From: Nemertoderma westbladi
Taxonomy: Eukaryota > Animalia > Xenacoelomorpha
Direction: 5' to 3'
NCBI GenBank assembly: GCA_032718475.1
Contig: JAUCBJ010001288.1
Coordinates: forward strand, 1 to 37,616
DNA length: 37,616 nt
Part shown: in pieces, positions 137 through 34,336 of the stretch
How the letters are laid out: each line of letters begins with the position of its first letter
Position numbering within the stretch: the first letter of the stretch is position 1
Translations under genes and position numbers: made by a program
The notes under the pieces: model-generated
Told to the model about the DNA's origin: nothing
The model's input: the letters and a program-made list of their open reading frames with translations, nothing else
Database searches by the model: none

Positions 137-1176
137 TGCCGCAATATGCCAAATCCTCTAGCACAGTGTTGCTTTGATGATTCAGATTACGACATCTACC
201 AGCTGGTTTGCTGGCATGGAAACGGCCGTTGGATCTATGGTTCTTTGTTCGGCTTAACAGCCAATCAGGGCGATTTTCATTTTATGTGTGGAGATATCTC
301 TGCAAATTGTGCTAGGCGAGTTTAGTGTTGGTTTTCCTATGCCAAGAACACCGGCTGTGGAATCATTCTGTTTTCAGACTTTAGCCAAACATTAGTAGGC
401 TTTGATTATAGAAACGTATAACTGTTATCAAGTCAATCCATATCATATCATATAAAACAGTGCATATCTCGTACTTTTCACCGCATTATTTTACTGCTAT
501 TTACTGTCGGTTATTAATTGCATCAGTTGATGGAATATTGTTATACTTGGAGAATATCGATAAATAACCCAAAAATCCCAATCTTCTTGATACACTAAAG
601 GTTAGAGAGACCGGTTACATATAGCAATTGCAACTTATATTATCGTGGTTTTGGAGTGAATCTAATGCTATTTCATAGATACTACATGAGTCAATTGCTG
701 TTCTCTTTATGTATGAACAAATTTTAGTGACTGTCGGCAGATCAGTGTGCAGTTGTGCGGTACCGGTAGTGTGCATGAGTGCGACTGATAACTAAGCATC
801 TCCTAAAGAATGCGCCTTATACGTGAATCATAAGCCGTACCGTTGTGTTTAGTATAAGTCATAACTCTGTTTACATATTTAGAGCGCCACGTCCTAAAGG
901 AACTGTTAATATTTCCCGAAAGTGAATAATATTTGTCAGAGATTATATATTAACGATCAATCGAATAATACAGTAGGCTTACACCGCAATAAGGTCAAGG
1001 CATACGAATCCAGCCTCCCGGGTATATCCAGCGGGTGAATGATCGCGCATCGGCTGGCTTCGGCTAATGTTGTGTTTATTTATAACAAATACTTGTCATA
1101 GGCTAAAGTCGATTTATAAACTAAAAGACACTTAAAATTAGTGGGTTAAACTGCTAAAGGTCTAAAAGCGCGAACA
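137..1176 (+). repeat. 5' LTR of BEL/Pao element
   Basis: TGCCGCAATA...GCGCGAACA; about 17 substitutions and no indels versus 17694-18733 by manual comparison (~98.4% identity). Confidence 0.95.
451..457 (+). promoter_or_regulatory. Candidate TATA box in LTR
   Basis: TATAAAA at 451-457, conserved in the 3' LTR; based on motif only. Confidence 0.35.
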
Positions 1177-1189
1177 ATAACAGTTATAC
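1177..1189 (+). promoter_or_regulatory. Non-tRNA primer-binding site candidate (self-priming type)
   Basis: ATAACAGTTATAC immediately follows the LTR-terminal CA and is the exact reverse complement of GTATAACTGTTAT at 416-428 (and 17973-17985). No TGG-type tRNA PBS is present here. Confidence 0.65.
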
Positions 1190-1242
1190 CTTCTTTATTG
1201 CAACGTAAGCAATAAAGCTGAAGTACCGGTCGACCGGTAACC

Positions 1243-1346
1243 TGTAGGCCCAACTGCCCGAACCGGTACTGCTGTAGGCATGTAGGCCCAACTGCCCGAA
1301 CTGGTACTGATGTAGGCCTGTAGGCCCAACTGCCCTAACCGGTACT
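1243..1346 (+). repeat. 38-bp tandem repeat (~2.7 copies) in BEL leader
   Basis: TGTAGGCCCAACTGCCC(G/T)AAC(C/T)GGTACT at 1243, 1281 and 1319. Confidence 0.85.
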
Positions 1347-2177
1347 TCCAGTACAGGTACATCAGTATTATTCGATTTTGATTATTATATACCGGTAGGT
1401 CTTGGTACTTAATCAGGGACTGCAGCCCTGGTTTTTTATTGAGATTTTACTTATTTCTGTTGGTTTTATCTACATGTAAGTTAATATTGAGCAGAAGATA
1501 TGTAAGTCTGCTCAGATTGTTCAGATAATTGTAGGCTGGACTGTTGTCTGACTGTTGTTAGGTCTGGAGAGATTGCGGCGTGTGTAGAGTCTGTCCGATA
1601 AAGTACCAGTTAGGAACGTAGGGGCATCTTGAGTTGTAAGGTAAACCCCCTCCGAAAGAATAAGTCGTCCTACTCGGTTAGAACGCATACTAACTAACCA
1701 TTTCGGAATCTGCATATACTGTAGTTTATTTAGGCTTGATAGTAGTCTGCCAGCGTTTAGTCTGTATTTGTTTGTGTATTCCGTACGGGTAGCGTAATAT
1801 TTATTATTCAGAGTTTATGCGATATTCGCAACATTCATATCCCCAAGTTTATTCCTACAGTAATTGTGCTTGTTACACATACCGTTATAGTTAAATTAAC
1901 CCCGGTACTACACGGGCTGCTTGGCGTAGGTAAAGACTGATGATTTTGTGCCCCGGTCACTCCAGCAGATACCGTGGTTCCTTTAGCTGTACAAGTATTT
2001 TTAACTGCTGGTTATCTGTTTTACAAGTACTTGTACCTAATTTAGGGTTCAGTGTACAGTGCTTTCCGAAAGTAATTAGTGTGTGGGCAGTATATTTGTG
2101 TTGTAAAGTGGTTAATAGGCACATTGGTTCTGGTAGACCGCGGTAATTAACTTCTAGGTAGGAACACTCCGTGAAAC

Positions 2178-2237
2178 ATAACGTAGTACTTATAGCGATA
2201 CGGCTATATAACGTAGTACTTATAGCGATACGGCTAT
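2178..2237 (+). repeat. Perfect 30-bp tandem duplication in BEL leader
   Basis: ATAACGTAGTACTTATAGCGATACGGCTAT x2. Confidence 0.9.
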
Positions 2238-4184
2238 AAATCGTCAGACGGTGGTATTTTTCCTATCTGGACAACGCAGTATATTTACTACTGCTTTATT
2301 ATTTTCAAATACCGTAGTATCCTGTCCGTTGTAATAACCAGAAATTCTAACCCTCTGTTGGGCTGGTTGGTAGTTTCCCTGTCAAATTATCCTAAAAATT
2401 CGTACGTGTAATTTTTGTGTTTATTTAGAGATTGTAATCTCACCCTATATTGTACGTAATTCGTAGATAAGTAACTTAGGCCAGTAGAATTATTTGTTTT
2501 AGTGTGCAACAAGTAGCACCGCACTAAGAGCGTATAGCTTATGTGCAGTGACTCCTCAGAAATAATAACATTTATTTCAAATATTGTAACAAAACCCCTT
2601 AAACGGGTATATATATATATTATAAATCAACTCCAATAGATTTATAAACTAGGTAGGCCTGTCATACAACAATTAGATCTTGACATCAGTTGGACTACTG
2701 CTTAAATAATGGTAATAAAGTAAGATAAAGTAAGATAAAGTAACTAAGTAACCCTTAAGATTCAGAAATTCAATTATTCTAAAATAATAGACATACCGGT
2801 ATCTGCAATAGGCTTGCTATATCTATATATTTGCGCTGAAATTATATACCGGTATTCTGTGACAAACCTAGTCTGCAATAATACTTATATACCGTATACT
2901 ATAAGTGTATACCGGTATTCTAATATATTGTAATTAATTACCGGTACTAGGCTAACAGTCATACTGAATTACTAGACTTGCTTTAACTGTAACTATAGCA
3001 GTAGGCATTCAACTGTATAAACAAATATGTCTGACACAAAGCAAAACCTGTCAGACAGTCTAATTGATACAACCATCTGTGACCCAGATAGGAGTGTGGA
3101 ACGTTTAAGACCGAAGTTCAGCTCACCTCCTACTGTAAGAAAGGTCATCCCTCCGGTAGTAGTATCAGACCCTAGGCTAATCCAACACCGTAGGTCTATC
3201 ATCGGCACTCGGGCCCAGGTCAAGCGGGATCAAGAAGCCGCTGTCAAACCGCAGCAACATCCTAGCCAAGAACTTCGATCCCAGCGACCCGATAGCTCCA
3301 GTAGTTCGGATACTGTAGAGCTGACCCCCGAACGCGGAGTGAAGATGACGGATACGGTTTATTCGGATCCCCTTCACACTCTTCCTGCAGCAGTACTAAC
3401 TACGGTATTGATGGCTGTGGAGGAACACCAAGTCGATTGGGCGAGAAGTAAGCGATCGACCCAAGACAGTTATGCGGGATACGCAAGGGAGGAATTGATG
3501 TCTATTGTCGAGTCGCAATGGAACTTCCCCGGACTCGGACTCCCGTTAGACTTATCTGAAGCTACCTGGGAAGACATACACAGGATGGGAGTGACAAAAG
3601 ATACAATGGATCCAGCTGTTTGGAAGAGGTCGGCAGCAGGATATGTGCAGGGATTCTTCGGCTCTTTAGAGCGATTAGAGGAACAACTGTTTCGACAACC
3701 CCAAGGACCTCAAGAGCAGGAAGAGCTGCTTTATCAAGTACGCGAAAGAACTCTACGCATTAGACTAATCCTATCGGCCTTTGAGGAAGCTTCCAAAAGA
3801 AGACAGGACACGTCGTTGCAAGTTGCTGTCAAGACTTGGTTCCAGCGGGTGGGTCTCAAGGTTCAAGAAACTGCCCAGTGGAAATTTCAGCTGGCTGAGT
3901 GACCAACCTATGAAGAATCAACCGATGCCACCTTTTCTCAAGTGGAAAGCGAAGTGACAGCAGAGAGACAGCGAAAGAGAGACGCTATTGACATCTACCT
4001 ATCAGACTATCAACGTTTCCTAGGTGATGAAGAGTTGAGGAGACGGCTGTCTGGACTTCGCCCTAATAGTGAAGGAGCCAAGTTTGTGTTGGATGCAATC
4101 GATGCGGAAATGTTAGCTGCGAACCAAGCCATATTTGACGAAAGACTCCGCATTGCTAGAGTCCAAGAAGAACAAGTAAAGAAA

Positions 4185-5513
4185 CTACTACTAGGATCGG
4201 CATGCTGCATTGCAGCTGCATTTTTAAGAATGCTGTGCCGGCTTGTCAACAAAATTGCACCGCCACAACTCCCTATCACCCATGACATTTGCTAGATCAT
4301 CCGCATCTTCAAGGCCAGTGTCCTTTAAGATGCGTCTCAAGAAAGTCATGGGCTGTCCACCATGCTTATTCACTCCATGAGGCTGCCAAAGTACAAGATT
4401 ATGCACTGGCTGGTCCTCACGGCGAAAGCAATGTCCTGCAAAGCGGAGGCGATTTTGTTCTAGTGTCAAGCTTGGGGGAACCAATGAGACACCTCCAATG
4501 TTATATAGTGTCTGGTTGGAGATGTGTGCATTGTACTTGACACAATGTACCCGGCGTAGCATTCTTGTGAATGTGCCATCCAGAGATTTGGTGTCCTCAG
4601 CAGTTAGAGCCCAGCATGGACTCCCATAGAGGAGTACTGGAACTACTGCTGCTCTAAATAATCGGACTTTAAGTTTCCGATTAATTCTAGGTGACTTCCA
4701 AATCCTGGAAAGCCTATTCAAGGCTGCCCATGCCTTTCCCTTACGTATTCGAAGGTCCTCACCTGACTTCCGGATCCATGATCCCAGGTAACAGAAGTCG
4801 TCCACATGCTCAAGCATACCATCCTTTGAGCTTATGCTCATCCGATCAGAGACTTGCTGAGGACTTTCAAAGTTAACTGTCAGAATTTTGGTCTTTCTGG
4901 AGTTAATAAAAAGACCAACACTAGAAGCAGCATGTTCTAATGAGCTGAGGAGCCGCTGGGCTCCCTCTAATGATTCTGAGAGTACTCCTAAGTCATCAGC
5001 AAAGTCTAGATCAGTTAGGTACTTGGCAGGATTTCCTCGACTTCTGGAGCCAGTAGGTGGAGTTATCATCACCCCATCATCATTATGATGATCTAAGGAC
5101 ATGCGTAGAACATAGTCAACCACAATAATGAACAAGAATGGTGCAAGTGTGTCTCCTTGGAGGACGCCCCATAACACTTCAAATGGTTCTGTGTCACCGT
5201 CAACAGTAGACACAAATGTTGTCGAACCATCGTATACTGATCTGATTGCTGCAATAATTTCATCAGGAATCCCATATAATGAAAGTATGCTGAACATACG
5301 TGAGCGAGAGACTGAATCAAAGGCCTTGAAGAAGTCAACAAAGATAACAGCCAGATGCCTGTCTTTCTTTTTTGATAACTCTTCAATTATCCTTCTAAGT
5401 GCCAAAATGGGCTCCATGGTCCCACGACCTTTACGGAACCCATTCTGATTTCCACGTAGCAGTCTCTCAATGGGATCCCTGATGCGATTTAATAGAATTC
5501 TATTTTTCTATTT
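4185..5513 (-). mobile_element. 5'-truncated RTE-like non-LTR retrotransposon inserted antisense in gag
   Basis: Flanked by AAGAAA direct repeats (4179-4184, 5514-5519); short (TAG)3 tail on the minus strand at 4185-4193; removing 1335 bp restores the gag frame (EEQVKK/KRIEDRKKVAVAAAE). Confidence 0.9.
4224..5504 (-). CDS. LINE reverse transcriptase, C-terminal part (RTE-like), no endonuclease
   Basis: NRILLNRI..QNGFRKGRGT, VDFFKAFDSV, GVLQGDTLAPFLF, LDFADD, FCYLGS, RLRFAGH, DRELWR; frame open to the stop at 4224. Confidence 0.9.
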   Translation of the reverse strand, partial: NRILLNRIRDPIERLLRGNQNGFRKGRGTMEPILALRRIIEELSKKKDRHLAVIFVDFFKAFDSVSRSRMFSILSLYGIPDEIIAAIRSVYDGSTTFVSTVDGDTEPFEVLWGVLQGDTLAPFLFIIVVDYVLRMSLDHHNDDGVMITPPTGSRSRGNPAKYLTDLDFADDLGVLSESLEGAQRLLSSLEHAASSVGLFINSRKTKILTVNFESPQQVSDRMSISSKDGMLEHVDDFCYLGSWIRKSGEDLRIRKGKAWAALNRLSRIWKSPRINRKLKVRLFRAAVVPVLLYGSPCWALTAEDTKSLDGTFTRMLRRVHCVKYNAHISNQTLYNIGGVSLVPPSLTLEQNRLRFAGHCFRREDQPVHNLVLWQPHGVNKHGGQPMTFLRRILKDTGLEDADDLANVMGDRELWRCNFVDKPAQHS

Positions 5514-7680
5514 AAGAAAAAACGAATAGAAGACAGAAAGAAAGTGGCAGTGGCAGCAGCAGAAGTAAAAGCGGCAGTGGCCGAGGCAGAACGAAAAGCA
5601 TCTGAAGAGACCACCCAATTAGAGTTGGAAAATATTCAAGAGAATCAAGACTACATAAATAAACAGTTAGCAGCTAGTCAAATGCAGATGATGAGTCGAT
5701 CTACTCCCAAACGACAGGGATTTACATCTTCTGATGAAGGCGATACCACCAACCCTGAAGGCGGAGGACATAGATCTCGTCTAAGTAGGCGTAGAAGAAC
5801 GTCTCACCGTCAGAAATTGCCTGATTTGCCTCCAGCTGTTAGAAGACAACTAGCTAGCACAGACTTAGGTAGTACAGAACCCACAGACCAAATTATTAGA
5901 GTAGAAAGACTCCCTACTATAGTAGATGAGCCTGAAATAATTAGGCCTGTTCTCGAAACCACCCCTTCGGTGAGAGAGACCCCTGTACTCCTCGAACCTA
6001 CCACCAAATTCCCTTTGCACAGTACTAAACTGCCTGTACCCGGTAGAACAGCCCAAGAGAATATCCCGGTCCTGGATGCCGAGAGAGAAATCCAAGATTT
6101 GTCTCCCGTCGTCCCGCATCTGCCCGCTACTACGTTGGCGACTCCCGCTTCGGCGGTCGAGTGGGTAGATGAGGGACGGCGGGAGATGTGTCTCTTGCTC
6201 GGACAGCTGAGGGAACAACGAGAATGTTCCTCCCGGCAGGTCCGAGATTCAGAAGGGACTGTCCACCAGCTCAAGGGAACAGTAAGGGAAAGTAGGTTAG
6301 AGCTACAAGAAGTGCAGCAAAGTATTGCGCTAGAACTCGACAAATTAGTAAATATACAAAAGGGTATACCAACTCCCCCTGTAACCATGTGTCAACCTGT
6401 TAGGCCTGAAGTATTTCATGCGCAAGGTGTGGAGCCTACACGCATCTATACTGCTAGTGAAGTAGAAACTCCTATAGTAAACCCTATTAAGGGTAATTAT
6501 AAACCTGTTGATAATGATATTCCCTATAGACCTGATAATAATCCGAGAAATTTATATACCGATAATTCGATATTAAATAACACGATGGCCCAAGAAAGCT
6601 TTACGCGTCAGATGGCTAGAACAGAAGCCCGCCAAGCGGTCAAAGTGGGAGAGATCGTCAAATTCAATGGAGATGAGATGAAATGGTTATCTTTTAATGA
6701 ATATTATAAAGATAACATACAGAACTCTGTACTATCTAACGGAGAGAAACTTAGATTCCTCATCGAATGTTTGGAAGGACCTCCCAAGTTAATGGCGTTA
6801 AAGTTTATTGGACATCCAGATGGATTAAGACAAGTTTGGGATACATTAAACATCAGGTATGGTAATAGGAATAACATAGCTAAGTATTTGTATGCAAAAT
6901 TGGTAGCCCCCCGAAAGTTCATTAGTAGCGGGATTATAGAGTTTTCCGATGAGATTCAGGAGGTCTGTAGACAATTGGATTGGCTAGGTAAGTCTCATGA
7001 ATATCAGAGTTCCATGGTTATTGGAGCCATAGCCTCTACTTTACCAAAGGGTGGAGTAGGTACACGCTGGGACAAGAAAGTGTTGTATATGATGGAGCAG
7101 CAACAACGAGACCCTACCATGGCTGATCTCATGTCCTTCTTAGATGGAGAAGTAAAATTACAACTCATAAAGCAGTCCAGAGAGAAAACACCGGAAAATA
7201 AGTTAAGTGAGAAACCCGTTTCTAGGAGAAAAGTAACCCCAGTGTGTTATACTGACGATGGCGAAAGTCAAGCTTCTCAAGAAGGTAAAAGACACTGGCT
7301 GATCTTACTATGTTAACAAAACGGCAAAAGACGTAAGTAAATACAAGTCTCGAACCAATGATAGGAGAGAACAGGTTGCCAAGACTCCTCCTCAGTCTTG
7401 TAACAGAATTCACGGAAGAAAGCCCGAAGAAGGAACGAGAGTGCATAACGTTATCCAAGGTAAAGTGAGTAACATCAAACCAAAATGTGCGCTGTGCGAC
7501 GGGCCCCACCGTTTGAGTGCGTGTGCTGAATTTCTAAAGAAATCCCTGGTAGACAGACGTGAAGTCATGTGGGATAAGCGGTTATGCTATAATTGCCTCA
7601 GACAAGGACACCAACGGCGAACCTGTTACTCCGACGTAAGGTGTGCAAAGTGCGGTGCGAAACATCACATCTTGTTACAC

Positions 7681-10600
7681 AATGAATTCGAACGAAACAG
7701 CCCGAGTCAGGTAAGTGAGCCCAAACTACATGTCCAATTCAGTGATGTAAATGACACTGATCAAGGTTCTGAGATGGAAGGATTCTATACGGACGAATTC
7801 TCCGATGCCAACGAATCCTGTTACCTAATAAATACCGCAGTGTATCGAGCACTTACGTATGAAAAGGAAACAGATAATGAGTTCCCCCCAACTACTTTTG
7901 ACAGACAACCATCTTGGAAAGCACCAACCTCCAACGTAGGAATCCGAGAGTTTCCTGTAGTGCAGGTAAGAGTCCATGGTCCTGACAAAAGTTACATAGT
8001 GAACGCCCTCCTTGATTCCGGCAGCACAGGAACATTTATTGACCAAGAACTAGCCGAAGACATCTTTGCTGGACAACCCAAATTCCAAACTAAGTTAAAC
8101 ATGTCAGGAATTATGCAGGTTTGGAAATCGACCATAATTGCAGATTATTATGTAGGTGCGTTGTCCACCCCCCAGGATAAATTAGGAGAACAAAGTATAA
8201 GGTCAGTAAAAATGGTGGCAATAAAGAACTTCGCTACTACCCAAGTAGAACCTTATAACTGGGACGAGGACGAGTGCATCCAGCAGCTTAAGATACCTCG
8301 ATTCCACACAGATTATCCTGGAGTGCAAATCCTCATCGGCCAAAACGCGCATGAGGCGCTAGAGACATTGGAGAAACGGCCTGCTCAACCGCAGCCACTA
8401 CAAACCTATGCGGTAAGAACTAGAGTAGGTTGGTACTTTACTGGTCCTTCCCGTATAACTCTCAAAGAAAGATTACCCCAAGAACAGGTATACCAAGTGG
8501 GGGAGTGGGAAGTGGAGAGCAGTGAGGTGGACGACCCAACTGAGGGAACGCCATACTCCTCAGATAACGACGATATCCACCAACTCTTCGACGAAGAGAA
8601 TGCAATCGACCTACTTACGGAAAACGAAACTTGGCAAAACCAAGTGAACCTATGTCAACTGATTCGCCCATCGGGGCCAATTAACTACAATGACGAACTC
8701 AATGACGAGATAGAGCGCTACAACGCTAGGACTCGGGACGAACTCGCCGTACGATTCTTTACTCAAGAGGTGGTAGAGCCCAATTCATACGATAAGGCCC
8801 TATCGGTAGAAGAAGAAAGAGCCAAGCAGATCCAGGAGACAACTACACGTTTTCTAAAAGATCAAGGTAGATATGAAATCGGCCTACCATTTCGAAAACG
8901 AGAACCTAGATTTATAAACAACCGACCCTTGGCGGAGAAAAGAATCGCTCAATTACATCGCCGCCTTACGGCAAATGCTTCAGCTAAAGAAATGTATCAA
9001 ACTCAGTTGAAGAAATTTATTAACAAAGGATATGCGGAGCGAGTACCGGAAGAAACACCCATAACTGAGAGAACGTACTATCTAACGCATCATTACGTTC
9101 CCAAACCCGGTAAACCCCATGAAGTCCGAGTCGTATTCGAAGGCTCCGCCCTATACATGGGCCAATCCCTCAATTCTTAGTTGTTACCAGGACCCAACTT
9201 ACTTCAATCCTTGTTGGGAATACTCTTAAGACTAAGACAATATTCCATCGCTTTCGCCTCTGATATAGAAGGAATGTTCTTACAAGTCAAGGCGCTGGAT
9301 AGGGATAGAGACAGCCTAAGATTTCTGTGGTGGCCTGAAGGAGATCTCAACCAGAAACCGGTGGAGTATGATCATCACATATGATCATCTGATGACCATC
9401 CAGGCTTTTGGGATCATCTCAAGCCCTTCGAATGCCTGCTCAGTGGTGCAGACCACTGCTGATGACAACCGGGACGCCTTCTCCAAAGAGGTTATTGACA
9501 ACATTAAACGGGATATATACATGGACGACAATATAAAGTCCCTCCCATCGGTGGAAGAAGCCATTGATGTCGCCAAAGGAACGGTAGAATGCTTAAAAAG
9601 AGGTGGATTTAGATTGACTAAATTCACCAGCAACTCCCGTGAGTTTCTGGAATCGATTCCGGTAGAAGACCGAGGAGCGAAAGACTTAGACCTAATCAAG
9701 GACGATCTTCCAGAAACCAAGACGCTTGGCTTGAAGTGGGACACGGAGAGAGATATCCTGTTTTTTCAGCTAAAACAGCGAGATAATCCAGTTTGGACCA
9801 AACGGATTTGTTTAAGTATCCTGAGCACTTATTTTGATCCATTGGGATTTATTAGCCCAGTTATATTGATTGCTCGGAGTTTAGTACAACAAATGTGGCT
9901 CGAAAACCACTCATGGGACGATCCACTTAAGGGAGAACTATTAAAGAAGTGGATGAAATGGGAAGATTCTCTACCAGCCATTGAGAACTTTATAATTTCC
10001 CGTTCATATTTTGGTCATGTTCTCCCTACGTATTCCTATCAACTCCATGTGTTTGGAGACGCCAGCGATATGGGAATAGGTATAGTAGCATACGTGAGAG
10101 TTGAAACTCCGGATGGAATCAAAGTCGCCTTGGTTACCTCTATGGCCTTGATTAACAACAAGTTGAAGGTTCCTTGAGCGGAGTTAAAAGCGGCTCTATA
10201 CACTACAGCCATCGGCCGGAATGTAACTGAACAGATCGATTACCCACTGGAGAAAACTGTTTACTGGACCGATGCTTTACTCGTGTTGGAGTATATAACC
10301 AATGAAGTCTGTCAGTTCAGCGTCTTTGTTACCAACAGAGTAGCCATTATTCTTAGTCGCACAAAGATAGATCAATGGAGACATTGCCCTGGTACGATTA
10401 ATCCAGCCGACATCGCCTCCAGGGGAGCAACTCCACAGGAACTGATAGATACTCCAGATTGGTTGGGTGGACCCGACTTCCTGAGCAAGGAAGAGGATGA
10501 ATGGCCTCCTCACCTTACTACGGCAGAGATTAGACAAGCCAAGGGAGCGGAGAAAGTCAAACCTAAAACCCGAGCGAGTAAATCGAAGTTATTTAAACCT

Positions 10601-11948
10601 GTGATAGATCTGTCAGTATTACACAATTCCGGAGACGAGGTTTTGGATCCACAATCCCTCGCCACAAATAAGTCTGTTGTGGAAATCAGAGAGAGAGAAT
10701 GGAAATCTGGAATGCCAGACGTCTCGCAAGGACTCTCACCCCTGCTGCAGAGAGCGATACATCACTATAGTTCCTGGAATCGGCTCTGTAAGGCCGTCAC
10801 ATATTTAAAGCGATGTTTTCATCATCAATACTACAGGACAAAGACCACTAGTGATACCGCTCCACTGACATCTGCACAAGTTCATGTTGTTAAAGATCTT
10901 CCCAAATATAGTAAGCTTCTATGAACTACCCTTTACTAATACCGGTGTGGATTTATTTGGCCCTATTGAAGTATATCATGCTAGGACTTTAGTCAAGAGA
11001 TGGTGTGTCATCTTTGTCTGCATGACTTGTAGAGCTATCCATCTCGATATGGTGAACAATCTATCTACCAACAGCTTCGTATTAAGTTTACGCCGACAGA
11101 TCGCTCGCTTCGGAACTAGTAACACGATGAGATCTGATAAGGGAACGAACTTCATTGGTGCCAACAACGAAATTCAGGCTTACGTAAAGGACTGGAACCA
11201 AAGACAGGTGGACGATCAGCTAAGGATAACAGCGTCTAGCTGGACCTTCAACGCCGCCGACGCCCCTTGGTGGGGAGGAAGTTGGGAGAGATTAATAAGA
11301 AGTGTAAAGACCGCATTTCACTTTATAGTGCCGTGCCGCGCGTATCTCACCAACGAACTTTTGCGGACGCTAATGGAGGAAATCGCCGCCTATCTCAACG
11401 AGAGACCGCTTATGCCAGTCTCATCTAGTCCCGATTCCCTGGAAGTGCTAACACCCGCGCACTTCCTACTGAAGAAACCTGTAGCCATGCTCCCACGATC
11501 GGAGATCACCGACGGAGACGAATACTGCCGGCAAACTTGGCAACTTATGCAGTTGCTATCCCGTCGTTTCGCTGATCATTTCGAAAAACATTATCTGCCC
11601 ACGCTACAACTTCGAACTAAGTGGTTTGCGCAGCAAGAAAACGTCAGCGCCGGAGACATGGTGCTTATTGTGGATTCAGACCTTCCACGTAAGCGGTGGC
11701 AGACAGGCCGTATCATCGAGACTCACATCTCGGAGGATGGTTTGGTGCGCTAGGTAGAACTCGTCGTCATGTGGCGTAACTTTAAGAAACCGGGCATAAT
11801 CTTCGAGACGCAACAGCTCAACCGCCCAGTTAGTCGTTTATGTTTACTGGAAAGAGACCGAGAACTCTCCGGAAACTATGGAAGGCAAGATACTCTTCCC
11901 ACGACCACCTCCCTAATTCCTCAAACATCTAGGGGCTCCCCAACATAA
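7681..11948 (+). pseudogene. pol: BEL/Pao pol (protease, RT, RNase H, integrase), disrupted
   Basis: ALLDSGSTGTFI; RVVFEGSA; SDIEGMFLQV; IYMDD; LHVFGDAS; WRHCPGTINPADIASRG; GVDLFGP/SDKGTNF/GGSWER; WQTGRI...RPVSRLCLLE. In-frame stops at 9178, 10175 and 11751; frameshifts near 9375 and 10910. Confidence 0.93.
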
Positions 11949-12512
11949 CCACATCTGGAGCGGGTGTGTGACTATATTATTTTATATACTTTTATTTCTT
12001 TTATATCTCTATGTATGTATTATTATGTAAATTTCTTATAATTGTTTTATTTAATTTTATTTAGTAGAATGTTATTTTAGAGATTATTTAGTAGATTAGT
12101 GCAATATATATTAGTGTTTATTACTTAATTACTTATATATTATATATTTAGTGCGACGGCGAGAAATAATTCTTTTTCTCTTTCCTTACTGTCCGTATTA
12201 TATTATAAATGCAAGACTACAGTAAGATGAAACGTCCGTACTTATTAAAGTCCAATAAAGCTCCTACTATATTCAAGTATTATTGGTAGGCAGAGTATTA
12301 GGAATGCAAAGTTCAGATCCTCGTGTCTCGGCTAAACCAAGCTCTGGGTAGACCTTGGAAACGACTTGCCTTTTCACACTGACATTGCTTCGTGCGATAT
12401 TGCTCTTCTACCTTAGATTAAATAATATATATAGTAGTGTGATGTCCCTCTAACAGTAGCGTAAAACGCAAATAAACCTGTTAAACCTGTTAAACCTTTT
12501 GACCATCTTTAA

Positions 12513-12769
12513 TTCTAGTCGATTAAGATATCGTGGCACCCACCGATATACTTGAAAGACAAATTCTAGAATCAGTGGTTAACGTCCCCAGACAAGTTCT
12601 GGAACAAATCGGTGCCCATCTTAAATATTAATTTAATATTTATTAAAATCTGTAAAATTCAGATCCTTTAAAATTTCTAGTCAATTAAGATATCGCAGCA
12701 CTTACCAATACTCTTAAAAGACAAATTTTCTAGATTTAAGGATCCTAGGTCCCCAGACATGCTCTGGAA
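12513..12769 (+). repeat. Imperfect ~95-bp direct repeat in the pol-ORF3 spacer
   Basis: TTCTAGTC(G/A)ATTAAGATATCG...AAAGACAAATT..CTAGA...GTCCCCAGACA.G.TCTGGAA at 12513-12604 and 12675-12769. Confidence 0.75.
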
Positions 12770-13590
12770 TAAAATTCTGTCAATTTTACCATCAAATAAT
12801 AAAATTTACGGGAATAAATTTAAATTCATATCTTTAACGAATTTAATAAATTGTCATTTTATGCAATTTATAATATTCCCAAAATTCCATTAATTAATAG
12901 ATCACGGGAGCGGAGATTCACCCTATTGAGTGTATTAGAGTGCGAGAATCTCCAATATATAGTCAATAGCCGATAAAATTCATAAAATCATGTATAAAGA
13001 GGATATTGACAATCAAAGAATTACTATTAAATAGCATCCCAGATCTGTATGCATGAGAATTACCCTAATTCTACCGCTAGCTTTCCATAATGTTACCATA
13101 GCAACACCCACGCTAGAATTAGAAGCAAGTTAAAAAGAACAATAGAAAGCTTGCCCCATTGCATAGCATAGAGAATACATAGCACACTGTTAGTATCCAA
13201 GGATACATAATAATAACGTGGCATTCTGGAAGGCACTGACTAACGGACAAATGGCCTGTATGTGTACAATTGGTGACAGTTGTGTGGAATTTGTGCGTTT
13301 ATAGGTGAATGTTACTACTAAAGTGTGTTTACAGTAGCAAGTCGCAATTGTGAAAGTAGCCCTAACTCTACCGAAAGAACCTGAAGTGGATCCAAGCCTT
13401 TGGGACGGACAGTGGAGTGACTTGTGCCGGTTATCATTGTCGTGGTGTAGCTACACGTTGGCGAAAACACCGCGACGACGGTACATCGGCGCTGAGAATC
13501 CCACTGTCCGGGGGCAGAGAGGGGTAGGCAGCGACGCCCGCTCGCCTAAATATAAACTCATTATAATATTAATAAACTCATATAACAGAT

Positions 13591-15282
13591 ATGACGGAGT
13601 TGATAGAATATGATCTTGGTATCAGGGAGCGATATACTCTACCTTTACAAGCGTTTGTGGATAGCTTGATACGCGGTGAAGCCGATCCAACTACTACGGA
13701 GGACGATGGTCGTTATATCGAACCGCCTATGTCCCAGGAGCAACTTACGCGTGAATTGGACTATAGAAAATTCACCGCTCGCTATACGCATCATAATGGT
13801 ACGTATATGGACTTCTTAACTACCGGCCATCCTATCAATTTACACGATACGGACGATGTAGACACCGAAAGGGAAATGGTTTTATTTAAATATCATACCC
13901 AGCGGAGTCGTAACGATAAACCGAGAATAGAACACGAGAATTCTATTCATAACCGACTTGAAAGAGAAAACGTTGAAGAACCCGATAAGCGCATCGACTT
14001 CAACGATTACCTGGAATTTTTGAGAGAAACCTATCTCAATATTGCCAGTCAACAGAACCTAGAAACTCGATATCCTCAAGGTATACATCATGACCCTATG
14101 GTAGAACTCAAACGGCTCTATTTCACTATGATGTATCTTACTGCCGATCGTCCACTACCTGTTGTCCCGGATAGCTTTGAACAGATGGAGGAATATTGCA
14201 AAACTGGAGAACGATCACCCGTGTTTCCTCTACAGGATGTGCGTCTTTGGTATTATTGTGACAAATGCCCTAGACCCAACCAACAAACGGAAAGACATAA
14301 ACATCCGCGGAGACGTTGCGCTAAACACAGTTTTAAGCGTTATACTTACGGGAGTTTCGAGCGAAATCTGTTTGATGTATCACCTACGATTGCTCGTCTC
14401 AAACGATCACTAAATAAACCCATGATCAGGGTTCCGGAATACTCGGTCAGGCCTCCTCATTCCCCAGTGAGACCTCAAACTCTTGACCCTAACAGTATCA
14501 CGGATCCTCCCGAACTATATTCACTGTTCAAAGATTTAGTGTTACCCGAACAATTAATCGGTGGCACCCTGGTATTGGGTTCGTTAGATATTCGCCCATC
14601 CTACTTAGCCGGATTGGGACGCGGGCATCTAATATCGCCATTTAATCCTTACAATCGTCCAGGATTAACCCCGATGCAATCCGCCACGGAAGTTGAGGAG
14701 AGCGTTATAAGAAACACTTTAGACGCTATTCGGCAGAAGATCGGAAAGGGAACGCAAGATTGTTTAGAGAAACGTAAATTACAGCTACAAGTCCAATCGG
14801 TGAAGGAGTTAGCCTTGCCACATTTCGATCAAGAAATCCAAAACCTCAAGGAGGACATCGAGCTTGGACGCACGTATTCTCTACAAGAGTTTCTAGATGA
14901 ACGCCTACAGCAACAAGCGGAGGAAAACCAACTCGAGGAGAAACACACGGAAATGGACGAGAGAGAAGAAGCCGCTTTAGCCCAACCCGAAGCTCAAATC
15001 CTTATGACGGATCTCTACTCTAAAACCGTCCGTCATCCCTCTATGGTTCCCCATTTCGGAGACAAACTCTTCGCGACAATACAACCCCAACCGGTTGATA
15101 TAAGCATAAGATCACAAAATCTTATTGCCGACGCTCCTATGTTACAGCGTCTGCCAATCGAGGCCGCTCGTGTTGATGGTATACTCCGAACCTCCGGACA
15201 ATCGAGCAGATCTTGTCCGTCGTATGGTACACGATATCAACATACGCGCTACACCTTTACAGAACTCGTTTTATGGGATTAA
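13591..15282 (+). CDS. ORF3 N-terminal part, unknown function (CxxC motif, acidic coiled coil)
   Basis: 563-aa open frame inside the LTR-bounded unit. The last ~35 codons probably read out of frame, because the overlapping frame 15125-15607 continues it. No signal peptide or TM segment evident. Confidence 0.7.
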   Translation: MTELIEYDLGIRERYTLPLQAFVDSLIRGEADPTTTEDDGRYIEPPMSQEQLTRELDYRKFTARYTHHNGTYMDFLTTGHPINLHDTDDVDTEREMVLFKYHTQRSRNDKPRIEHENSIHNRLERENVEEPDKRIDFNDYLEFLRETYLNIASQQNLETRYPQGIHHDPMVELKRLYFTMMYLTADRPLPVVPDSFEQMEEYCKTGERSPVFPLQDVRLWYYCDKCPRPNQQTERHKHPRRRCAKHSFKRYTYGSFERNLFDVSPTIARLKRSLNKPMIRVPEYSVRPPHSPVRPQTLDPNSITDPPELYSLFKDLVLPEQLIGGTLVLGSLDIRPSYLAGLGRGHLISPFNPYNRPGLTPMQSATEVEESVIRNTLDAIRQKIGKGTQDCLEKRKLQLQVQSVKELALPHFDQEIQNLKEDIELGRTYSLQEFLDERLQQQAEENQLEEKHTEMDEREEAALAQPEAQILMTDLYSKTVRHPSMVPHFGDKLFATIQPQPVDISIRSQNLIADAPMLQRLPIEAARVDGILRTSGQSSRSCPSYGTRYQHTRYTFTELVLWD

Positions 15283-15607
15283 AGACCACCCTTATTACGT
15301 TAATCTGACTCAATATTATATGGTAAAACCTGAAGACCCGACGCATAATTTAAAGTTTCTACCGCTGATAAATCCTCTCGACATGGTCGAACTCAAACAA
15401 TTGCAGAAACATCTGGATCAGTTAGTAAAAGTAAACTCATTCAGAAAACCATACAACATATCTAGAATCAAGAAGGATGCAACACCTCCGTATAATCTCG
15501 ATGGATTTATTAAAACTCGATTAGTCCATTGGAATCTCGACGTATTATTCGAGGAAGAGAGAATACAAAGATATGAAATGTGGAGACGTGTACCACTCAG
15601 TACCTGA
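15125..15607 (+). CDS. ORF3 middle segment (frameshifted bridge)
   Basis: Protein-like frame-2 ORF overlapping both neighbouring frame-1 ORFs. Confidence 0.55.
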   Translation: MPTLLCYSVCQSRPLVLMVYSEPPDNRADLVRRMVHDINIRATPLQNSFYGIKDHPYYVNLTQYYMVKPEDPTHNLKFLPLINPLDMVELKQLQKHLDQLVKVNSFRKPYNISRIKKDATPPYNLDGFIKTRLVHWNLDVLFEEERIQRYEMWRRVPLST

Positions 15608-17679
15608 AGTATAGTGATCTCCCTGACGCTAGCCAATGCGCCACCTTGTGGCATCCAGTAGGGATGACCCTAGAGAACGCCACCAAAGAGTGGAATGAAA
15701 CTCTTAATGTCATTGAGATGTACGGAGTTGTCACCTACGATAACGAAGGTAGCGTTCCAGTCGGAGAATTAGGAACTACGCGCATGATACATATACGAGG
15801 ATTAGCTGGTTCTACCCACGTGTTTACTAGAGCGTGTTCCGATGTGATTGATTATTCTTTTGAGACTCTCACCGAAACACAAAAGAATCTCCGACATGGA
15901 CAATTCGAACTCGCACAGCATTATGTCATGGACACCGAGCGCAAACCTGCAATGGGTATCGATGGATCGATGTTACCCCAGCCCGTGCTCGAGATGTTGT
16001 TCAACGAAAGAATCTTTAAAATCGGCTCAGCTGTTTATGGAGATCTCCAAAACGACTTTCGGAACATGGAGAACATTCCATATCCTTTCGTGGATACTCA
16101 GCTGATTGCTCCCTGGGCAGAAGGCCGAGGTTTCTTCCGCACCATGTATGCTAATACATCCAGCAACATCGCCAAAGTACAACGAACTTCCATCGGACAT
16201 CTTGCCTTTCAGGAATACGGATGGAATTTCAAAGTCGGAAATCCTATCAACTATCAACAAGTATATGGAGACCATTATTCTCGATTATACTTTGACGGAC
16301 CATTGACCGCACCTGGCGCCGTGTATAGCTTCATGAGTGTTCCACTCCGTCCCTCCTTAGCTATATACACGATCTTTGAAAACACCGCACTTGCCGGTTG
16401 GCTAGCCGATGTGTGCAGTCGTACTATACGTGCCCATCCATTAATACTTGGAACCAAACTCGCTAAGCTAGATGAACATAATAAATTCATCCGCTTCGAA
16501 TGTTTCAGGCGTTTTTTAACCCCGTTCCGTAACGTGGATAGCCAATTCAAGGACCGCGCTTTGACCAAGCTCAGCCTAAGAAACTCAGCTGCGGAGAAGG
16601 TAGATAGCGCTCGATTTGCAATTTTTAAAGATATTTGTATACAGAACTTACACTCCTCTGTTATACAAAGACCTCGAATTCCCACAGGTTATTCTGTCGT
16701 GGAAATTCAGACAGTGGGTTCAATTGAGGAGACAGCCACACCCACCTCGGCCATGCACTTGGAAGACGAACCAATATGCTTAAAATCCGAGGAGATTCAG
16801 CCTACCGCGCCCAGGAGCAGCGACAACGATTACATCTTAGAATGGTATCAAGGTCCACAGTGTCTCACCGCATACGATTATCGCCATGCCAACTATGTTT
16901 CTCGACAACGTTGTCGGTTATGCGCATTGAGAGACCATATTACGCCCATGGACACAAACGTACCCTGCTCCTATTTCCACAAACAACCGGCGATGGAAAT
17001 CTATTGTGCATATTGCCAACTCAACAATTTGCACATTTTTGCAGTCTGCCCCCAATTTATGACTCAATGCCACCATTGTCAACTAAAAGGACATGCCAGT
17101 TTTGATTGCCCTTTTAATCACGATTTAGAAAGCGTAGATGAAATGATTACACTACGTTACATTCGAGCTTGGGAAGCGAACGCTGATTTATATTGCGATT
17201 CACGCCATCGCTATTACCCTGGACGCGCCTACGAAGGAGTTTATGCGTTCCATCCCTATCTATTCGCGTCTGTCGAACAGAAATCACACATACCGAGTTA
17301 CGAGCTAATAAAGCGCGTCGGAGAATGTATTTCAACCAAATTTGTACGCAAATTTCTCCGGAGCGTTAATCCTAACGATATTCATTCCTACAACTTAATC
17401 AATTTTATCCGTCAAGATCCAGAATATGGCGATTTATTTATCAACTCGCATCCAGAGTTACAGGAAGTATATCGACGGCCTTACGAATACCGAGCCCGAG
17501 AGCGCGAGTTGGAAAGAACCATTAAACCAAGGAAGTTTCTCACTGCCTATGGTCCGCCCACGGCTCTCGTTCAGACCACTCGTAAAGGACCCGTAAGAGC
17601 TGCTGTCCTGAAAAGCGCTCTAAAGGCCGTTAGACCTCTCTCCCCCGAAGTTGATGTCGACCGCAATAATAAAATATAA
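15580..17679 (+). CDS. ORF3 C-terminal part: DEDDy-type 3'-5' exonuclease domain plus CCHC zinc-knuckle cluster
   Basis: ExoI VVTYDNEG (D 15739, E 15745); ExoII LPQPVLEMLFNERIFKIGSAVYGDL (D 16042); FVDTQ; SIGHLA; ExoIII PLRPSLAIYTIFE (Y 16366). Knuckles CAYCQLNNLHIFAVC and CHHCQLKGHASFDC. The stop lies 14 nt before the 3' LTR. Confidence 0.8.
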   Translation: METCTTQYLKYSDLPDASQCATLWHPVGMTLENATKEWNETLNVIEMYGVVTYDNEGSVPVGELGTTRMIHIRGLAGSTHVFTRACSDVIDYSFETLTETQKNLRHGQFELAQHYVMDTERKPAMGIDGSMLPQPVLEMLFNERIFKIGSAVYGDLQNDFRNMENIPYPFVDTQLIAPWAEGRGFFRTMYANTSSNIAKVQRTSIGHLAFQEYGWNFKVGNPINYQQVYGDHYSRLYFDGPLTAPGAVYSFMSVPLRPSLAIYTIFENTALAGWLADVCSRTIRAHPLILGTKLAKLDEHNKFIRFECFRRFLTPFRNVDSQFKDRALTKLSLRNSAAEKVDSARFAIFKDICIQNLHSSVIQRPRIPTGYSVVEIQTVGSIEETATPTSAMHLEDEPICLKSEEIQPTAPRSSDNDYILEWYQGPQCLTAYDYRHANYVSRQRCRLCALRDHITPMDTNVPCSYFHKQPAMEIYCAYCQLNNLHIFAVCPQFMTQCHHCQLKGHASFDCPFNHDLESVDEMITLRYIRAWEANADLYCDSRHRYYPGRAYEGVYAFHPYLFASVEQKSHIPSYELIKRVGECISTKFVRKFLRSVNPNDIHSYNLINFIRQDPEYGDLFINSHPELQEVYRRPYEYRARERELERTIKPRKFLTAYGPPTALVQTTRKGPVRAAVLKSALKAVRPLSPEVDVDRNNKI

Positions 17680-17693
17680 TAATAATAATAAAA

Positions 17694-18733
17694 TGCCGCA
17701 ATACGCCAAATCCTCTAGCACAGTGTAGCTTTGATGATTCAGATTACGACATCTACCAGCTGGTTTGCTGGCATGGAAACGGCCGTTGGATCTATGGTTC
17801 TTTGTTTGGCTTAACAGCCAATCAGGGCGATTTTCATTTTATGTGTGGAGATATCTCTGCAAATTGTGCTAGGCGAGTTTAGTGTTGGTTTTCCTATGCC
17901 AAGAACACCGGCTGTGGAATCATTCTGTTTTCAGACTTTAGCCGAACATTAGTAGGCTTTGATTATAGAAACGTATAACTGTTATCAAGTCAATCCATAT
18001 CATACCATATAAAACAGTGCATATCTCAGACTTTTCACCGCATTATTTTACTGCTATTTACTGTCGGTTATTAATTGTATCAGTTGATGGAATATTGTTA
18101 TACTTGGAGAATATCGATAAATAACCCAAAAATCCCAATCTTCTTGATACGCTAAAGGTTAGAGAGACCGGTTACATATAGCAATTGCGACTTATATTAT
18201 CGTGGTTTTGGAGTGAATCTAATGCTATTTCATAGATACTACATGAGTCAATTGCTGTTCTCTTTATGTATGAACAAAATTCAGTGACTGTCGACAGATC
18301 AGTGTGCAGTTGTGCGGTACCGGTAGTGTGCATGAGTGCGACTGATAACTAAGCATCTCCTAAAGAATGCACCTTATACGTGAATCATAAGCCGTACCAT
18401 TGTGTTTAGTATAAGTCATAACTCTGTTTACATATTTAGAGCGCCACGTCCTAAAGGAACTGTTAATATTTCCCGAAAGTGAATAATATTTGTCAGAGAT
18501 TATATATTAACGATCAATCGAATAATACAGTAGGCTTACACCGCAATAAGGTCAAGGCATACGAATCCAGCCTCCCGGGTATATCCAGCGGGTGAATGAT
18601 CGCGCATCGGCTGGCTTCGGCTAATGTTGTGTTTATTTATAACAAATTCTTGTCATAGGCTAAAGTCGATTTATAAACTAAAAGACACTTAAAATTAGCG
18701 GGTTAAACTGCTAAAGGTCTAAAAGCGCGAACA
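17694..18733 (+). repeat. 3' LTR of BEL/Pao element
   Basis: Near-identical copy of 137-1176, TG...CA. Confidence 0.95.
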
Positions 18734-19193
18734 CATATGGAGCAAGCTGCGATCGTTTCTATCGCAAACAATGAATACACAACTCACACTGCCTTTGGAT
18801 GTAACAATGCTGTGTTTTATTGCATATTTGGACTCAATCAACCTTAGTAGGGCTACAATTTTAAATTATATGTCGGCTATAGCCATGACTTATCGATTAC
18901 TTAATATGACAGAATCTACCAAATCTTTTCGTATCCCTAGACTTCCTATCACAAAACAAATTTTATCACGAATGTTGCATGTGTGCAGTTCTGTTTATCC
19001 TGATCCTTATACTAACTCCATACTTAGATCTGTATTTATATTAGCTTTTTATGGTTTTTTACGAGTAGGTGAATTCGCACCAAAAAAGGGTACTGACGAA
19101 GTGGTTATAAATAGAACAGATCTACAATACGACGGACCTAGACTTATTATTACTATTTGCGCAAAAAACAGGGATAGTACGTCTGTATCATAA
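18734..19193 (+). pseudogene. Tyrosine recombinase fragment (DIRS/Ngaro/Crypton-type), truncated
   Basis: YGASCDRFYR.., CFIAYL...ATILNYMSAI, RLPITKQIL, LAFYGFLRVGEF (first catalytic Arg box). The downstream HxxR/H/Y motifs are missing. Confidence 0.8.
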
Positions 19194-19970: not shown

Positions 19971-20266
19971 ACGGTCCACCCCGCTACCCTAATTAACTGA
20001 GTGCTTTATTTGTACATTTGTGTATCATCAGTGAGTTCAGACATTCGTACCCTGGTATATATAATGCAATAATAAGTATAATGGCTGAATGGGAATTACC
20101 CAATTATGAACTGTTGGAAGGAACCGGTAGGCCTACTGTTCTACCAGTACCGATGTAGGAAGTGGATAGACTGTAACTGTTGACTGTACTGCGGCTGGTA
20201 TTCGGTACCGGACCGGAAGTTAAAGTGTGGCATTTAAGTGTAAATACAGAAATATAGGCCTAAAGT

Positions 20267-33706: not shown

Positions 33707-34336
33707 GATAATGACCAAGAAGAAGTAGATCTGGCTACCACCCAAAGCATGTTAAACAAAAGAGGGTCGCTTCAGGACGGGATAAAGATTCAACAAAGAG
33801 TTGATGGATCTGTTGACTTTTACCGTATCTGGAACGAATACGTTAATGGATTTGGCAACCCGAATACCAATTTTTGGTTGGGGTTGGAGGAGATCCACGA
33901 GCTGAGTAAAGGCGGGGTGAAATTGAGGGTCGATTTGTGGTTCACTGGAAAGGGTTATGAAGATCCCAATTACGGAGGGGCTCAAGATAATGGAATAGTG
34001 AAGTTTTACACCAACGAACACAAATACGCGGAATACGACAACTTCTCTATCGGATCAGCTGCAACTAATTATCGCCTAGATGTATCCGGTTACCATGGTA
34101 CTGCTGGTGACTCATTGAGGATCCAAAACGGTGATCAATTCACTACCAAGGACCGCGATAATGACCCTGATCGACTCAACTGCGCCGTAGAACTTACTGG
34201 GGCGTGGTGGTACAACAGCTGCGCGACCAGTAACTTGAACGGAGAATATGGTGCGCAGTATGGGAAAGGACCTCATTGGTATTCTTTTACTAGATGGAGT
34301 CCGGCTTCTCGAGTTGAAATGAAGATTTGGATTTAG
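33707..34336 (+). CDS. Exon 2 of fibrinogen-related (FReD) protein, ficolin/tachylectin-like; spliced product 242 aa
   Basis: TTGTTTTAG acceptor; DNDQEEVDLATTQSMLNKR then IQQRVDGSVDFYRIWNEYVNGFG, FWLGLEEIH, LRVDL, YAEYDNF, GTAGDSL, FTTKDRDND, NCA...GAWWYNSCATSNLNG, VEMKI*. Confidence 0.93.
   Translation, partial: DNDQEEVDLATTQSMLNKRGSLQDGIKIQQRVDGSVDFYRIWNEYVNGFGNPNTNFWLGLEEIHELSKGGVKLRVDLWFTGKGYEDPNYGGAQDNGIVKFYTNEHKYAEYDNFSIGSAATNYRLDVSGYHGTAGDSLRIQNGDQFTTKDRDNDPDRLNCAVELTGAWWYNSCATSNLNGEYGAQYGKGPHWYSFTRWSPASRVEMKIWI

What the first reader, a model, noticed from the sequence alone, without database searches (positions are those of the whole stretch)
137..18733. Candidate new system: giant BEL/Pao element combining non-tRNA priming, atypical PPT and its own 3'-5' exonuclease/zinc-knuckle protein
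Seen: one LTR-bounded unit has three oddities together: a PBS complementary to its own LTR, no G-containing PPT, and an ORF3 with a DEDDy exonuclease and CCHC knuckles. The best TATA candidate (451-457) lies downstream of the complementary 13-mer. If that TATA is real, only the 3'-LTR copy (17973-17985) would be in the genomic RNA. Inference: the RNA 3' region, or a second RNA molecule, could anneal to the PBS. ORF3 could then trim the unpaired 3' tail back to the duplex, creating the minus-strand primer. Alternatively, ORF3 could counter piRNA/siRNA silencing or proofread for RT. The functional coupling is a hypothesis only.
Basis: partly seen in the sequence, partly recalled or inferred. Interest (0 to 1): 0.9.

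Follow-up and report, generated by a model that had tools for sequence, protein, structure and literature searches.

The report
Large self-priming BEL/Pao retrotransposon with exonuclease
A 17-kb jumping gene of the BEL/Pao group has a copying start site that pairs with its own terminal repeat and not with a tRNA, so it likely starts DNA copying with a piece of its own RNA, and its extra gene, predicted to encode an RNA-trimming enzyme, is probably not needed for that step because smaller relatives without the gene show the same pairing.

Summary
The three oddities are real, but the proposed coupling is not supported. LTRs 137-1176 and 17694-18733 (98.4% alike, no target duplication) bound a decayed, repeated BEL/Pao element; 1.3 kb is a nested LINE. 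The primer site (1177-1189) abuts the LTR and is an exact 13-nt complement of LTR 416-428 (5 of 20,000 shuffles): the Tf1-type self-priming signature. ORF3 ends in a divergent DEDDy-like domain (last acidic residue E, activity untested) plus zinc knuckles. Decisive comparison: of 11 distant BEL/Pao relatives with a defined LTR end, all 6.3-7.3 kb and without ORF3, 7 have a self-complementary primer site, 2 a tRNA-type site, 2 unresolved. The 'TATA' at 451 lies where 4 of 7 self-complementary relatives have a poly(A) signal, so the 13-mer is likely at both RNA ends and the 5' copy can prime as in Tf1. The G-free tract before the 3' LTR is unexplained. Exonuclease ORF3s are in print for rotifer gypsy-type elements; self-priming in BEL/Pao was not found in print, but this scan noted both on other DNA. 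No RNA ends could be read.

The parts
137..1176 (+). 5' LTR, 1040 bp, TG..CA
   Evidence: 17 mismatches to the 3' LTR, K2P 0.017
416..428 (+). 13-mer complementary to the primer site; candidate self-primer, likely at or near the start of R (inferred)
451..456 (+).
   Evidence: [quoted passage not shown]
1177..1189 (+). Primer-binding site abutting the LTR, not tRNA-type
   Evidence: no tRNA gene in window
1190..1220 (+). Hairpin directly after the primer site
   Evidence: pairs 1190-1198 with 1212-1220 in all 8 folds
1190..3026 (+). Long leader with short tandem repeats (38 nt x3 at 1243-1356; 30 nt x2 at 2178-2237) and a second 13-nt complement to the LTR (1365-1377 with 959-971)
3027..7316 (+). 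gag, with a stop at 3900 and interrupted by the LINE; DUF1759
4179..5513 (-). Nested 5'-truncated non-LTR (LINE) RT fragment with a 6-nt duplication; not part of the family
   Evidence: RVT_1, DUF6451; joint 4178-5514 in contigs of X1, X2, X6
7303..11948 (+). Zinc knuckles, protease, RT, RNase H, integrase of BEL/Pao type; broken by several stops and frame changes, integrase zinc-finger region apparently deleted
   Evidence: (Peptidase_A17 6e-28, DUF5641 1e-17)
11957..11966 (+). G-rich run followed by TG just after the pol stop, where ORF3-less relatives have their plus-strand tract and 3' LTR; possible relic or internal tract (inferred)
11967..13590 (+). AT-rich non-coding spacer; no second copy in the leader, so not an inner LTR
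13591..15607 (+). ORF3, first two frame pieces; no family hit, no membrane segment
15727..16383 (+). ORF3 DEDDy-like 3'-5' exonuclease domain: ExoI D-x-E at 15727-15750, ExoII at 16018-16047, ExoIII Y-x3-E at 16366-16383
16912..17109 (+). ORF3 zinc-knuckle cluster
   Evidence: (retroviral nucleocapsid, E 1.2e-5)
17664..17693 (+). G-free A-rich (AAT)n-like tract in the place of the polypurine tract
17694..18733 (+). 3' LTR, with the 13-mer at 17973-17985

Best explanation
This is a decayed copy of a large, repeated BEL/Pao LTR retrotransposon whose primer site pairs with its own LTR, which likely primes minus-strand DNA synthesis with the 5' copy of that 13-mer after a predicted cut by its own RNase H, as Tf1 does, and whose ORF3 is a captured exonuclease-like zinc-knuckle accessory gene that probably acts apart from priming. 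Shown: LTR pair, primer site and complement, BEL/Pao domains, nested LINE, ORF3 motifs, ORF3-less relatives with the same kind of primer site. Inferred: transcription starts at or shortly before 416; TATAAA at 451 is the poly(A) signal, so R is short (about 416-475) and the 13-mer lies at both RNA ends; the 5' copy pairs with 1177-1189, is cut after 428 and is extended across U5; the remaining R serves the first strand transfer. ORF3 most likely binds RNA through its knuckles and trims or shields element or small RNAs (RNP assembly or evasion of silencing); that last step is a guess, and the E in ExoIII leaves catalysis open.
For: Exact 13-nt complement at offset 0 meets the published working rule for a self-primer, at least 10 bp starting 0-5 nt after the LTR (PMC6317226, passages). 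Tf1 mechanism: first 11 bases pair with the PBS and RNase H cuts after them (PMC7175516, passages); Tj1 has the same anatomy (PMC4600332, passages). 0 of 80 BEL/Pao loci hit the ORF3 profile (positive control). Of the 11 with a defined 5' LTR end, 3 have a contiguous complement (10, 11, 11 nt; 2, 0, 0 of 200 shuffles), 4 a complement across a GT..AG intron in the LTR (12, 12, 15, 11 nt; 0, 7, 0, 5 of 200), 2 a TGG site, 2 unresolved; integrase-to-LTR gaps of 120-516 nt in 13 of 13 measured leave no room for ORF3. 4 of those 7 have AATAAA/ATTAAA 11-25 nt after the primer's 3' end, the window has TATAAA at 22 (P about 9e-5, interval chosen after seeing the data). The whole unit, ORF3 included, is deeply covered in four runs against the right flank. 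Exonuclease ORF3s are family-specific late gains in rotifer LTR elements (PMC5408684, passages and Discussion).
Against: No RNA start or end was observed. No TATA-like motif lies 25-35 nt before 416. R-U5 would be 761 nt, against 72-289 nt in the relatives. The window's RT is a long branch (1.8-1.9) outside the supported clade (98/97) of the 9 non-TGG relatives; grouping is neither shown nor rejected (p-AU 0.11), so priming may have arisen separately here. Only 17 of 80 loci hold 2 kb or more after the integrase. Predicted pairing of the duplex is unstable: 0.7-0.9 for five start points, 0.12 and 0.03 for two, and absent from the best fold. TATAAA at that place has a 0.07 chance rate. Variation of the primer site among the family's own copies was not seen.
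Confidence: 0.6

Rival explanations
1. One reading: transcription starts after the 13-mer, only the 3' LTR copy is in the RNA, and ORF3 trims the 3' tail back to the duplex to make the primer.
For: TATAAAA at 451 has a CA about 29 nt downstream, a usable TATA spacing. ORF3 has D-x-E, D and Y-x3-E motifs plus knuckles. The 13-mer is near the RNA 3' end in either model. The window's lineage is distant from the tested relatives. Rodriguez et al. suggest 3'-end processing as one possible role.
Against: 7 of 11 ORF3-less relatives have self-complementary sites. The hexamer matches the poly(A)-signal position. Trimming to 17985 would remove that molecule's R and the only copy of 429-479, so a second intact RNA is required (inference). 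ExoIII lacks the canonical D.
Confidence: 0.08
2. Self-priming from the 3' copy or from a second RNA molecule, with the cut made by RNase H or host nucleases; ORF3 not involved.
For: The 13-mer should be present at both RNA ends if R spans it; sequence alone cannot tell which copy is used.
Against: The only tested precedent uses the 5' copy; cutting the 3' copy destroys the acceptor for strand transfer (inference).
Confidence: 0.12
3. The complement is incidental; the primer is a host RNA (tRNA fragment, piRNA or other small RNA).
For: Two other internal positions have a 13-nt complement in the LTR; host tRNAs could not be searched; half-tRNA priming exists in other groups.
Against: Exact match at offset 0, 5 of 20,000 shuffles; same anatomy with different letters in 7 relatives.
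Confidence: 0.1
4. The unit is a chimera made at this locus: gag-pol and ORF3 come from separate elements joined by recombination or assembly.
For: No target-site duplication; a G-rich run plus TG follows pol where relatives have their 3' LTR; no listed contig spans the unit.
Against: No inner LTR pair; depth is continuous from pol through the spacer into ORF3 in four runs and none of the 15 joints shown (of 820) bypasses ORF3 or links pol to an LTR; LTRs 98.4% alike.
Confidence: 0.07

Closest known systems
Tf1/Tf2, Tj1 and the Tf1/sushi group; predicted self-primers in plant Tcn1 and TAR lineages
   Same: Primer site next to the 5' LTR, not tRNA-type, complementary to a stretch inside the LTR.
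   Different: Those are Ty3/gypsy or Ty1/copia; this is BEL/Pao. 13 nt rather than 11; loop of 748 nt; start of the RNA and the RNase H cut not shown here.
Belpaoviridae (BEL/Pao) as profiled by ICTV
   Same: LTRs of 0.2-1.2 kb, gag-pol with PR-RT-RH-IN order, DUF1759, Peptidase_A17, DUF5641.
   Different: Profile gives 4.2-10 kb, an 18-nt tRNA site and a purine tract of about 10 nt; here about 17.3 kb, self-complementary site, G-free tract and a non-env ORF3.
DEDDy exonuclease ORF3 of bdelloid rotifer Juno and Vesta LTR retrotransposons and of Athena/Terminon elements (PMC5408684, PMC6431247)
   Same: RNase D-like 3'-5' exonuclease as an extra ORF after pol, altered acidic motif, Cys/His motif in some, activity and role untested.
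   Different: Carrier here is BEL/Pao; about 1,360 codons with a long unknown N-terminal part and a knuckle cluster; kinship to the rotifer ORFs not tested (no sequences at hand).
EXD2, RNase D, WRN-exo, NrnC (DNA_pol_A_exo1 family)
   Same: Best though weak matches in four searches.
   Different: No significant direct hit; ExoIII D replaced by E; inserts of 20-30 residues.

Membership tests
BEL/Pao (Belpaoviridae) | LTRs with TG..CA flanking gag-pol, order PR-RT-RH-IN | tested here: met
BEL/Pao (Belpaoviridae) | BEL/Pao-type Gag, RT/RNase H and integrase sequences | tested here: met
   DUF1759, Peptidase_A17, DUF5641 above cut-off; 69 homologues, 68 with PF05380
BEL/Pao (Belpaoviridae) | 18-nt tRNA primer site (ICTV profile) | tested here: not met
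   no TGG within 0-5 nt; also not met by 9 of 11 relatives, so the profile's feature does not hold family-wide
BEL/Pao (Belpaoviridae) | Purine tract of about 10 nt before the 3' LTR | tested here: not met
   a run of 10 or more in only 1 of 13 relatives, but 11 of 13 are G-rich there
BEL/Pao (Belpaoviridae) | Target-site duplication | tested here: not met
   one copy only, loss after insertion is possible
BEL/Pao superfamily (Pao, BEL, Tas, Suzu, Sinbad, Sailor, Dan, Flow; names partly recalled) | Placement among named reference elements | not testable with these tools
   no named references at hand; long branch among unnamed loci
Tf1-type self-primed elements (works-like) | 10 bp or more of LTR complement starting 0-5 nt after the 5' LTR | tested here: met
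   13 bp at offset 0; rule
Tf1-type self-primed elements (works-like) | Complement lies at the 5' end of the RNA and is released by RNase H | not testable with these tools
   no raw RNA reads listed; indirect support from poly(A)-signal position
Tf1/sushi group (membership) | Ty3/gypsy chromovirus RT and integrase | tested here: not met
   BEL/Pao domains
DEDDy 3'-5' exonuclease | Sequence or fold match to the family | tested here: inconclusive
   direct hits weak (RNase D E 0.026; EXD2 E 0.37; top 10 Foldseek rows all DEDDy but E about 1-2 on a model of pLDDT 35); homologue P0004 matches PF01612+PF00098 at 0.92. All point the same way.
DEDDy 3'-5' exonuclease | ExoI D-x-E and ExoII D | tested here: met
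   aligned with P0001 and P0004
DEDDy 3'-5' exonuclease | ExoIII Y-x3-D | tested here: not met
   Y-x3-E in the window and P0001, D in P0004; register differs between alignments
DEDDy 3'-5' exonuclease | 3'-5' nuclease activity | not testable with these tools
   needs an assay

The most novel reading that the evidence does not exclude
In this one large lineage the element's own exonuclease makes the minus-strand primer by trimming an RNA 3' end back to the LTR-PBS duplex, and plus-strand synthesis starts from a G-free A-rich tract: a retroelement that builds both primers without tRNA or a purine tract.
Probability: 0.08. Interest if true: 0.85.

Novelty: new variant of a known kind. Interest (0 to 1): 0.5.

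Why it matters
BEL/Pao elements are described as tRNA-primed and 4-10 kb long. A 17-kb member with a Tf1-like self-priming site and an exonuclease ORF3 extends two features known from other groups to this family, and 7 of 11 scorable relatives suggest self-priming is common there. A widely used survey kept elements of 2-15 kb, so such large members are easily missed. The family gives a direct test of what retrotransposon-borne exonucleases do, open since 2017, and of how an LTR end is set without a G-rich tract.

Tried and rejected
No whole genome is held for the window, so other full-length copies could not be read. No RNA holder was listed; run X4 is only guessed to be RNA and covers non-coding parts too, so it was not read as expression. 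Word-indexed protein searches with ORF3 found nothing. P0003 was dropped as a low-complexity chance hit; 3 of 4 hits were kept. Three scans of viral contigs found no relative. Single-sequence fold pLDDT 30 and alignment fold pLDDT 35 are poor; the wide fold search returned only single-helix matches, best Z 3.7; phmmer against PDB gave nothing useful. No tRNA gene or ribozyme inside the element: ARAGORN 0, Rfam one chance hit at E 0.15, so an element-encoded tRNA primer or a self-cleaving RNA is not indicated. A splice-junction primer was tested for the window and is no better than the contiguous match (12 against 13 nt, non-consensus sites). An inner LTR pair (nested BEL inside another element) was not found. 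An env-like ORF3 is unlikely: no hydrophobic segment above 1.4. RNA folding neither supports nor refutes the duplex. Of 80 loci, 69 were left out of the primer-site count because their 5' LTR end could not be fixed from a repeat; for 5 of the 11 scored, 700 nt before the 3' repeat end stood in for the LTR. Primary Tf1 papers and two older papers on nematode Cer elements were not held.
Full report
Anatomy. The unit runs from 137 to 18733. Its LTRs (137-1176, 17694-18733) are 1040 bp, begin TG and end CA, and differ at 17 places, 13 transitions and 4 transversions (K2P 0.017). No target duplication of 4-8 nt flanks it. Pfam gives DUF1759 in gag, Peptidase_A17 in RT/RNase H and DUF5641 in the integrase, all above cut-off, and 68 of 69 RT homologues carry PF05380: it is BEL/Pao. 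This copy is dead: stops at 3900, 9178, 10175, 10922 and 11751, frame changes in pol, and two frame breaks in ORF3; contigs of other copies differ from it at several of these places, so the breaks look like decay. A non-LTR RT fragment on the minus strand (4179-5513) is a nested insertion: contigs in X1, X2 and X6 join 4178 to 5514 with six shared letters. Without it the element is about 17.3 kb, against 4.2-10 kb in the ICTV profile (PMC8742986, whole text), but under the 20-kb internal length that Arkhipova and Yushenova use for large elements (PMC6431247, passages). Summed contig depth is high in all bins of the unit, ORF3 included, and drops by one to three orders of magnitude in the right flank in all four runs; this is no copy number, and no listed contig spans the unit, but it shows a repeated family and not a one-off fusion.

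Primer site. The 13 nt right after the 5' LTR are the exact complement of 416-428 (and 17973-17985), 15 of 16 when extended. Five of 20,000 shuffled LTRs do as well; 3 of 16,487 internal positions do. There is no TGG site, no tRNA gene and no Rfam family above chance. [quoted passage not shown] Folding is inconclusive: the duplex has probability 0.7-0.9 for five start points, 0.12 and 0.03 for two, and one start excludes it; it is absent from the best fold of 410-1400, z -1.6.

ORF3. The last frame piece has no useful Pfam hit and word-indexed searches failed. A full HMMER scan gave four hits, E 2e-6 to 9e-4; three share its layout, an exonuclease-like domain followed by zinc knuckles. ExoI D-x-E and ExoII D align; ExoIII is Y-x3-E here and in P0001 and Y-x3-D in P0004. 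A profile of three sequences hits one PDB sequence up to E 10, EXD2 at 0.37; the window's protein hits RNase D at E 0.026; P0004's nearest Atlas cluster is DNA_pol_A_exo1 plus zf-CCHC at 0.92; a poor model (pLDDT 35) has RNase D, EXD2 and NrnC as its top ten Foldseek rows, none significant. The knuckles match retroviral nucleocapsid at E 1e-5. So it is a divergent DEDDy-like domain with untested activity. Such ORF3s are in print for bdelloid Juno and Vesta elements and Terminons, as family-specific gains of unknown role (PMC5408684, passages and Discussion).

The coupling test. A metagenome scan kept 80 of 461 BEL/Pao loci, 34-45% identical in RT. None of the 80 hits the ORF3 profile (control), though only 17 hold 2 kb or more after the integrase. 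Eleven have a 5' LTR end fixed by a repeat; they are 6.3-7.3 kb, and in 13 of 13 loci with a measurable 3' LTR start the gap after the integrase match is 120-516 nt. Of the eleven, two have a TGG site, three a contiguous self-complement of 10-11 nt (2, 0, 0 of 200 shuffles), four a complement of 11-15 nt across a consensus GT..AG intron in the LTR (0, 7, 0, 5 of 200), two are unresolved. The splice test was prompted by earlier notes of this scan. The limit: the nine non-TGG relatives form one supported clade and the window is a long branch outside it; holding them together is not rejected, p-AU 0.11. The test shows that ORF3 is not needed in the family at large, not that it is idle in this lineage.

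TATA box or poly(A) signal. The LTR has no AATAAA or ATTAAA. In four of the seven self-complementary relatives one lies 11-25 nt after the primer's 3' end, in two at 49 and 93, in one none; the window's TATAAA lies at 22 (four of seven by chance about 9e-5, with the interval chosen afterwards; chance for the window alone 0.07). [quoted passage not shown] None of the eight has a TATA-like motif in the 60 nt before the complement, and LTR borders cannot be fixed without RNA data (PMC3601003, passages). The simplest reading is a short R that begins near 416 and ends near 475, so that the 13-mer is at both ends of the RNA and the 5' copy is free to prime. The long U5 this implies (about 700 nt) is unusual among the relatives and counts against it.

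Plus-strand tract. The 30 nt before the 3' LTR hold no G. Relatives are not canonical either (a purine run of 10 or more in 1 of 13), but 11 of 13 have five or more G in the last 15 nt. In the window a G-rich run followed by TG lies just after the pol stop (11957-11966), at the place where relatives begin their 3' LTR, yet no inner LTR pair exists. It may be a relic of the time before ORF3 was gained, or an internal start. Whether the A-rich tract is family-wide or an expansion in this copy is open. This is the one oddity that stays unexplained.

Novelty. Self-priming in BEL/Pao was not found in print in searches (listings; Sinbad paper PMC554778 and the survey PMC3118150, passages only, say nothing on it under the terms used). 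An exonuclease ORF3 in BEL/Pao was not found in searches (listings). The library lacks most subscription papers, Repbase and GyDB; I recall, unverified, that some nematode Cer elements of the BEL group were described with an extra exonuclease-like domain and with an element-encoded primer RNA, and those papers were not held. No supplements were read; the length table of PMC3118150 may bear on how unusual the size is. This scan has noted both features separately on other genomes and nothing like this ORF3 by sequence. Verdict: a new variant of a known kind, combining two borrowed features in an unusually large BEL/Pao family; the proposed new priming system has about 8% odds. Interest 0.5.

Noticed in passing
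L004, L060, L061, L071 (LTRs): Primer site is complementary to an exon-exon joint across a consensus GT..AG intron inside the LTR (11-15 nt), reproducing on other DNA a splice-built primer noted earlier in this scan.
   Followed up: partly
L080:135-155 and 6904-6934: The 5' LTR has an intron acceptor where the 3' LTR has the joined form carrying the 11-nt complement: one LTR looks copied from spliced RNA.
   Followed up: no
window 8576-10368, 10557-11825, 13955-16757, 17294-17455: Contigs of other copies skip these stretches: deletion derivatives lacking RT/RNase H, integrase or the exonuclease domain.
   Followed up: no
window 13545-13593: AT-rich stretch ending in an AG two bases before the ORF3 ATG: possible splice acceptor for a subgenomic ORF3 RNA, as for env genes (inference).
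   Followed up: no
window 18723-19193: The element's right flank is a broken tyrosine-recombinase-like frame (DIRS-type label recalled, no Pfam hit); a 3.5-kb contig in X1 continues it with other sequence.
   Followed up: no
window 20264-24271: A separate Ty3/gypsy element with gag knuckles, protease, RT, RNase H and integrase, several stops.
   Followed up: no
window 27348-about 31800: Tandem array of a 66-nt unit, about 65 copies, 94-96% alike.
   Followed up: no
window 33707-34336: Open frame resembling a fibrinogen C-terminal domain (label recalled, not searched).
   Followed up: no
window 35584-36279 and 37382-37550: 12-nt tandem repeat present in both orientations about 1.2 kb apart.
   Followed up: no
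window 12513-12788: Imperfect repeat with 162-165 nt spacing in the spacer between pol and ORF3.
   Followed up: no
P0002: ORF3-family homologue with a degenerate exonuclease and two copies of the knuckle module; genomic context of P0001, P0002 and P0004 could not be read.
   Followed up: partly
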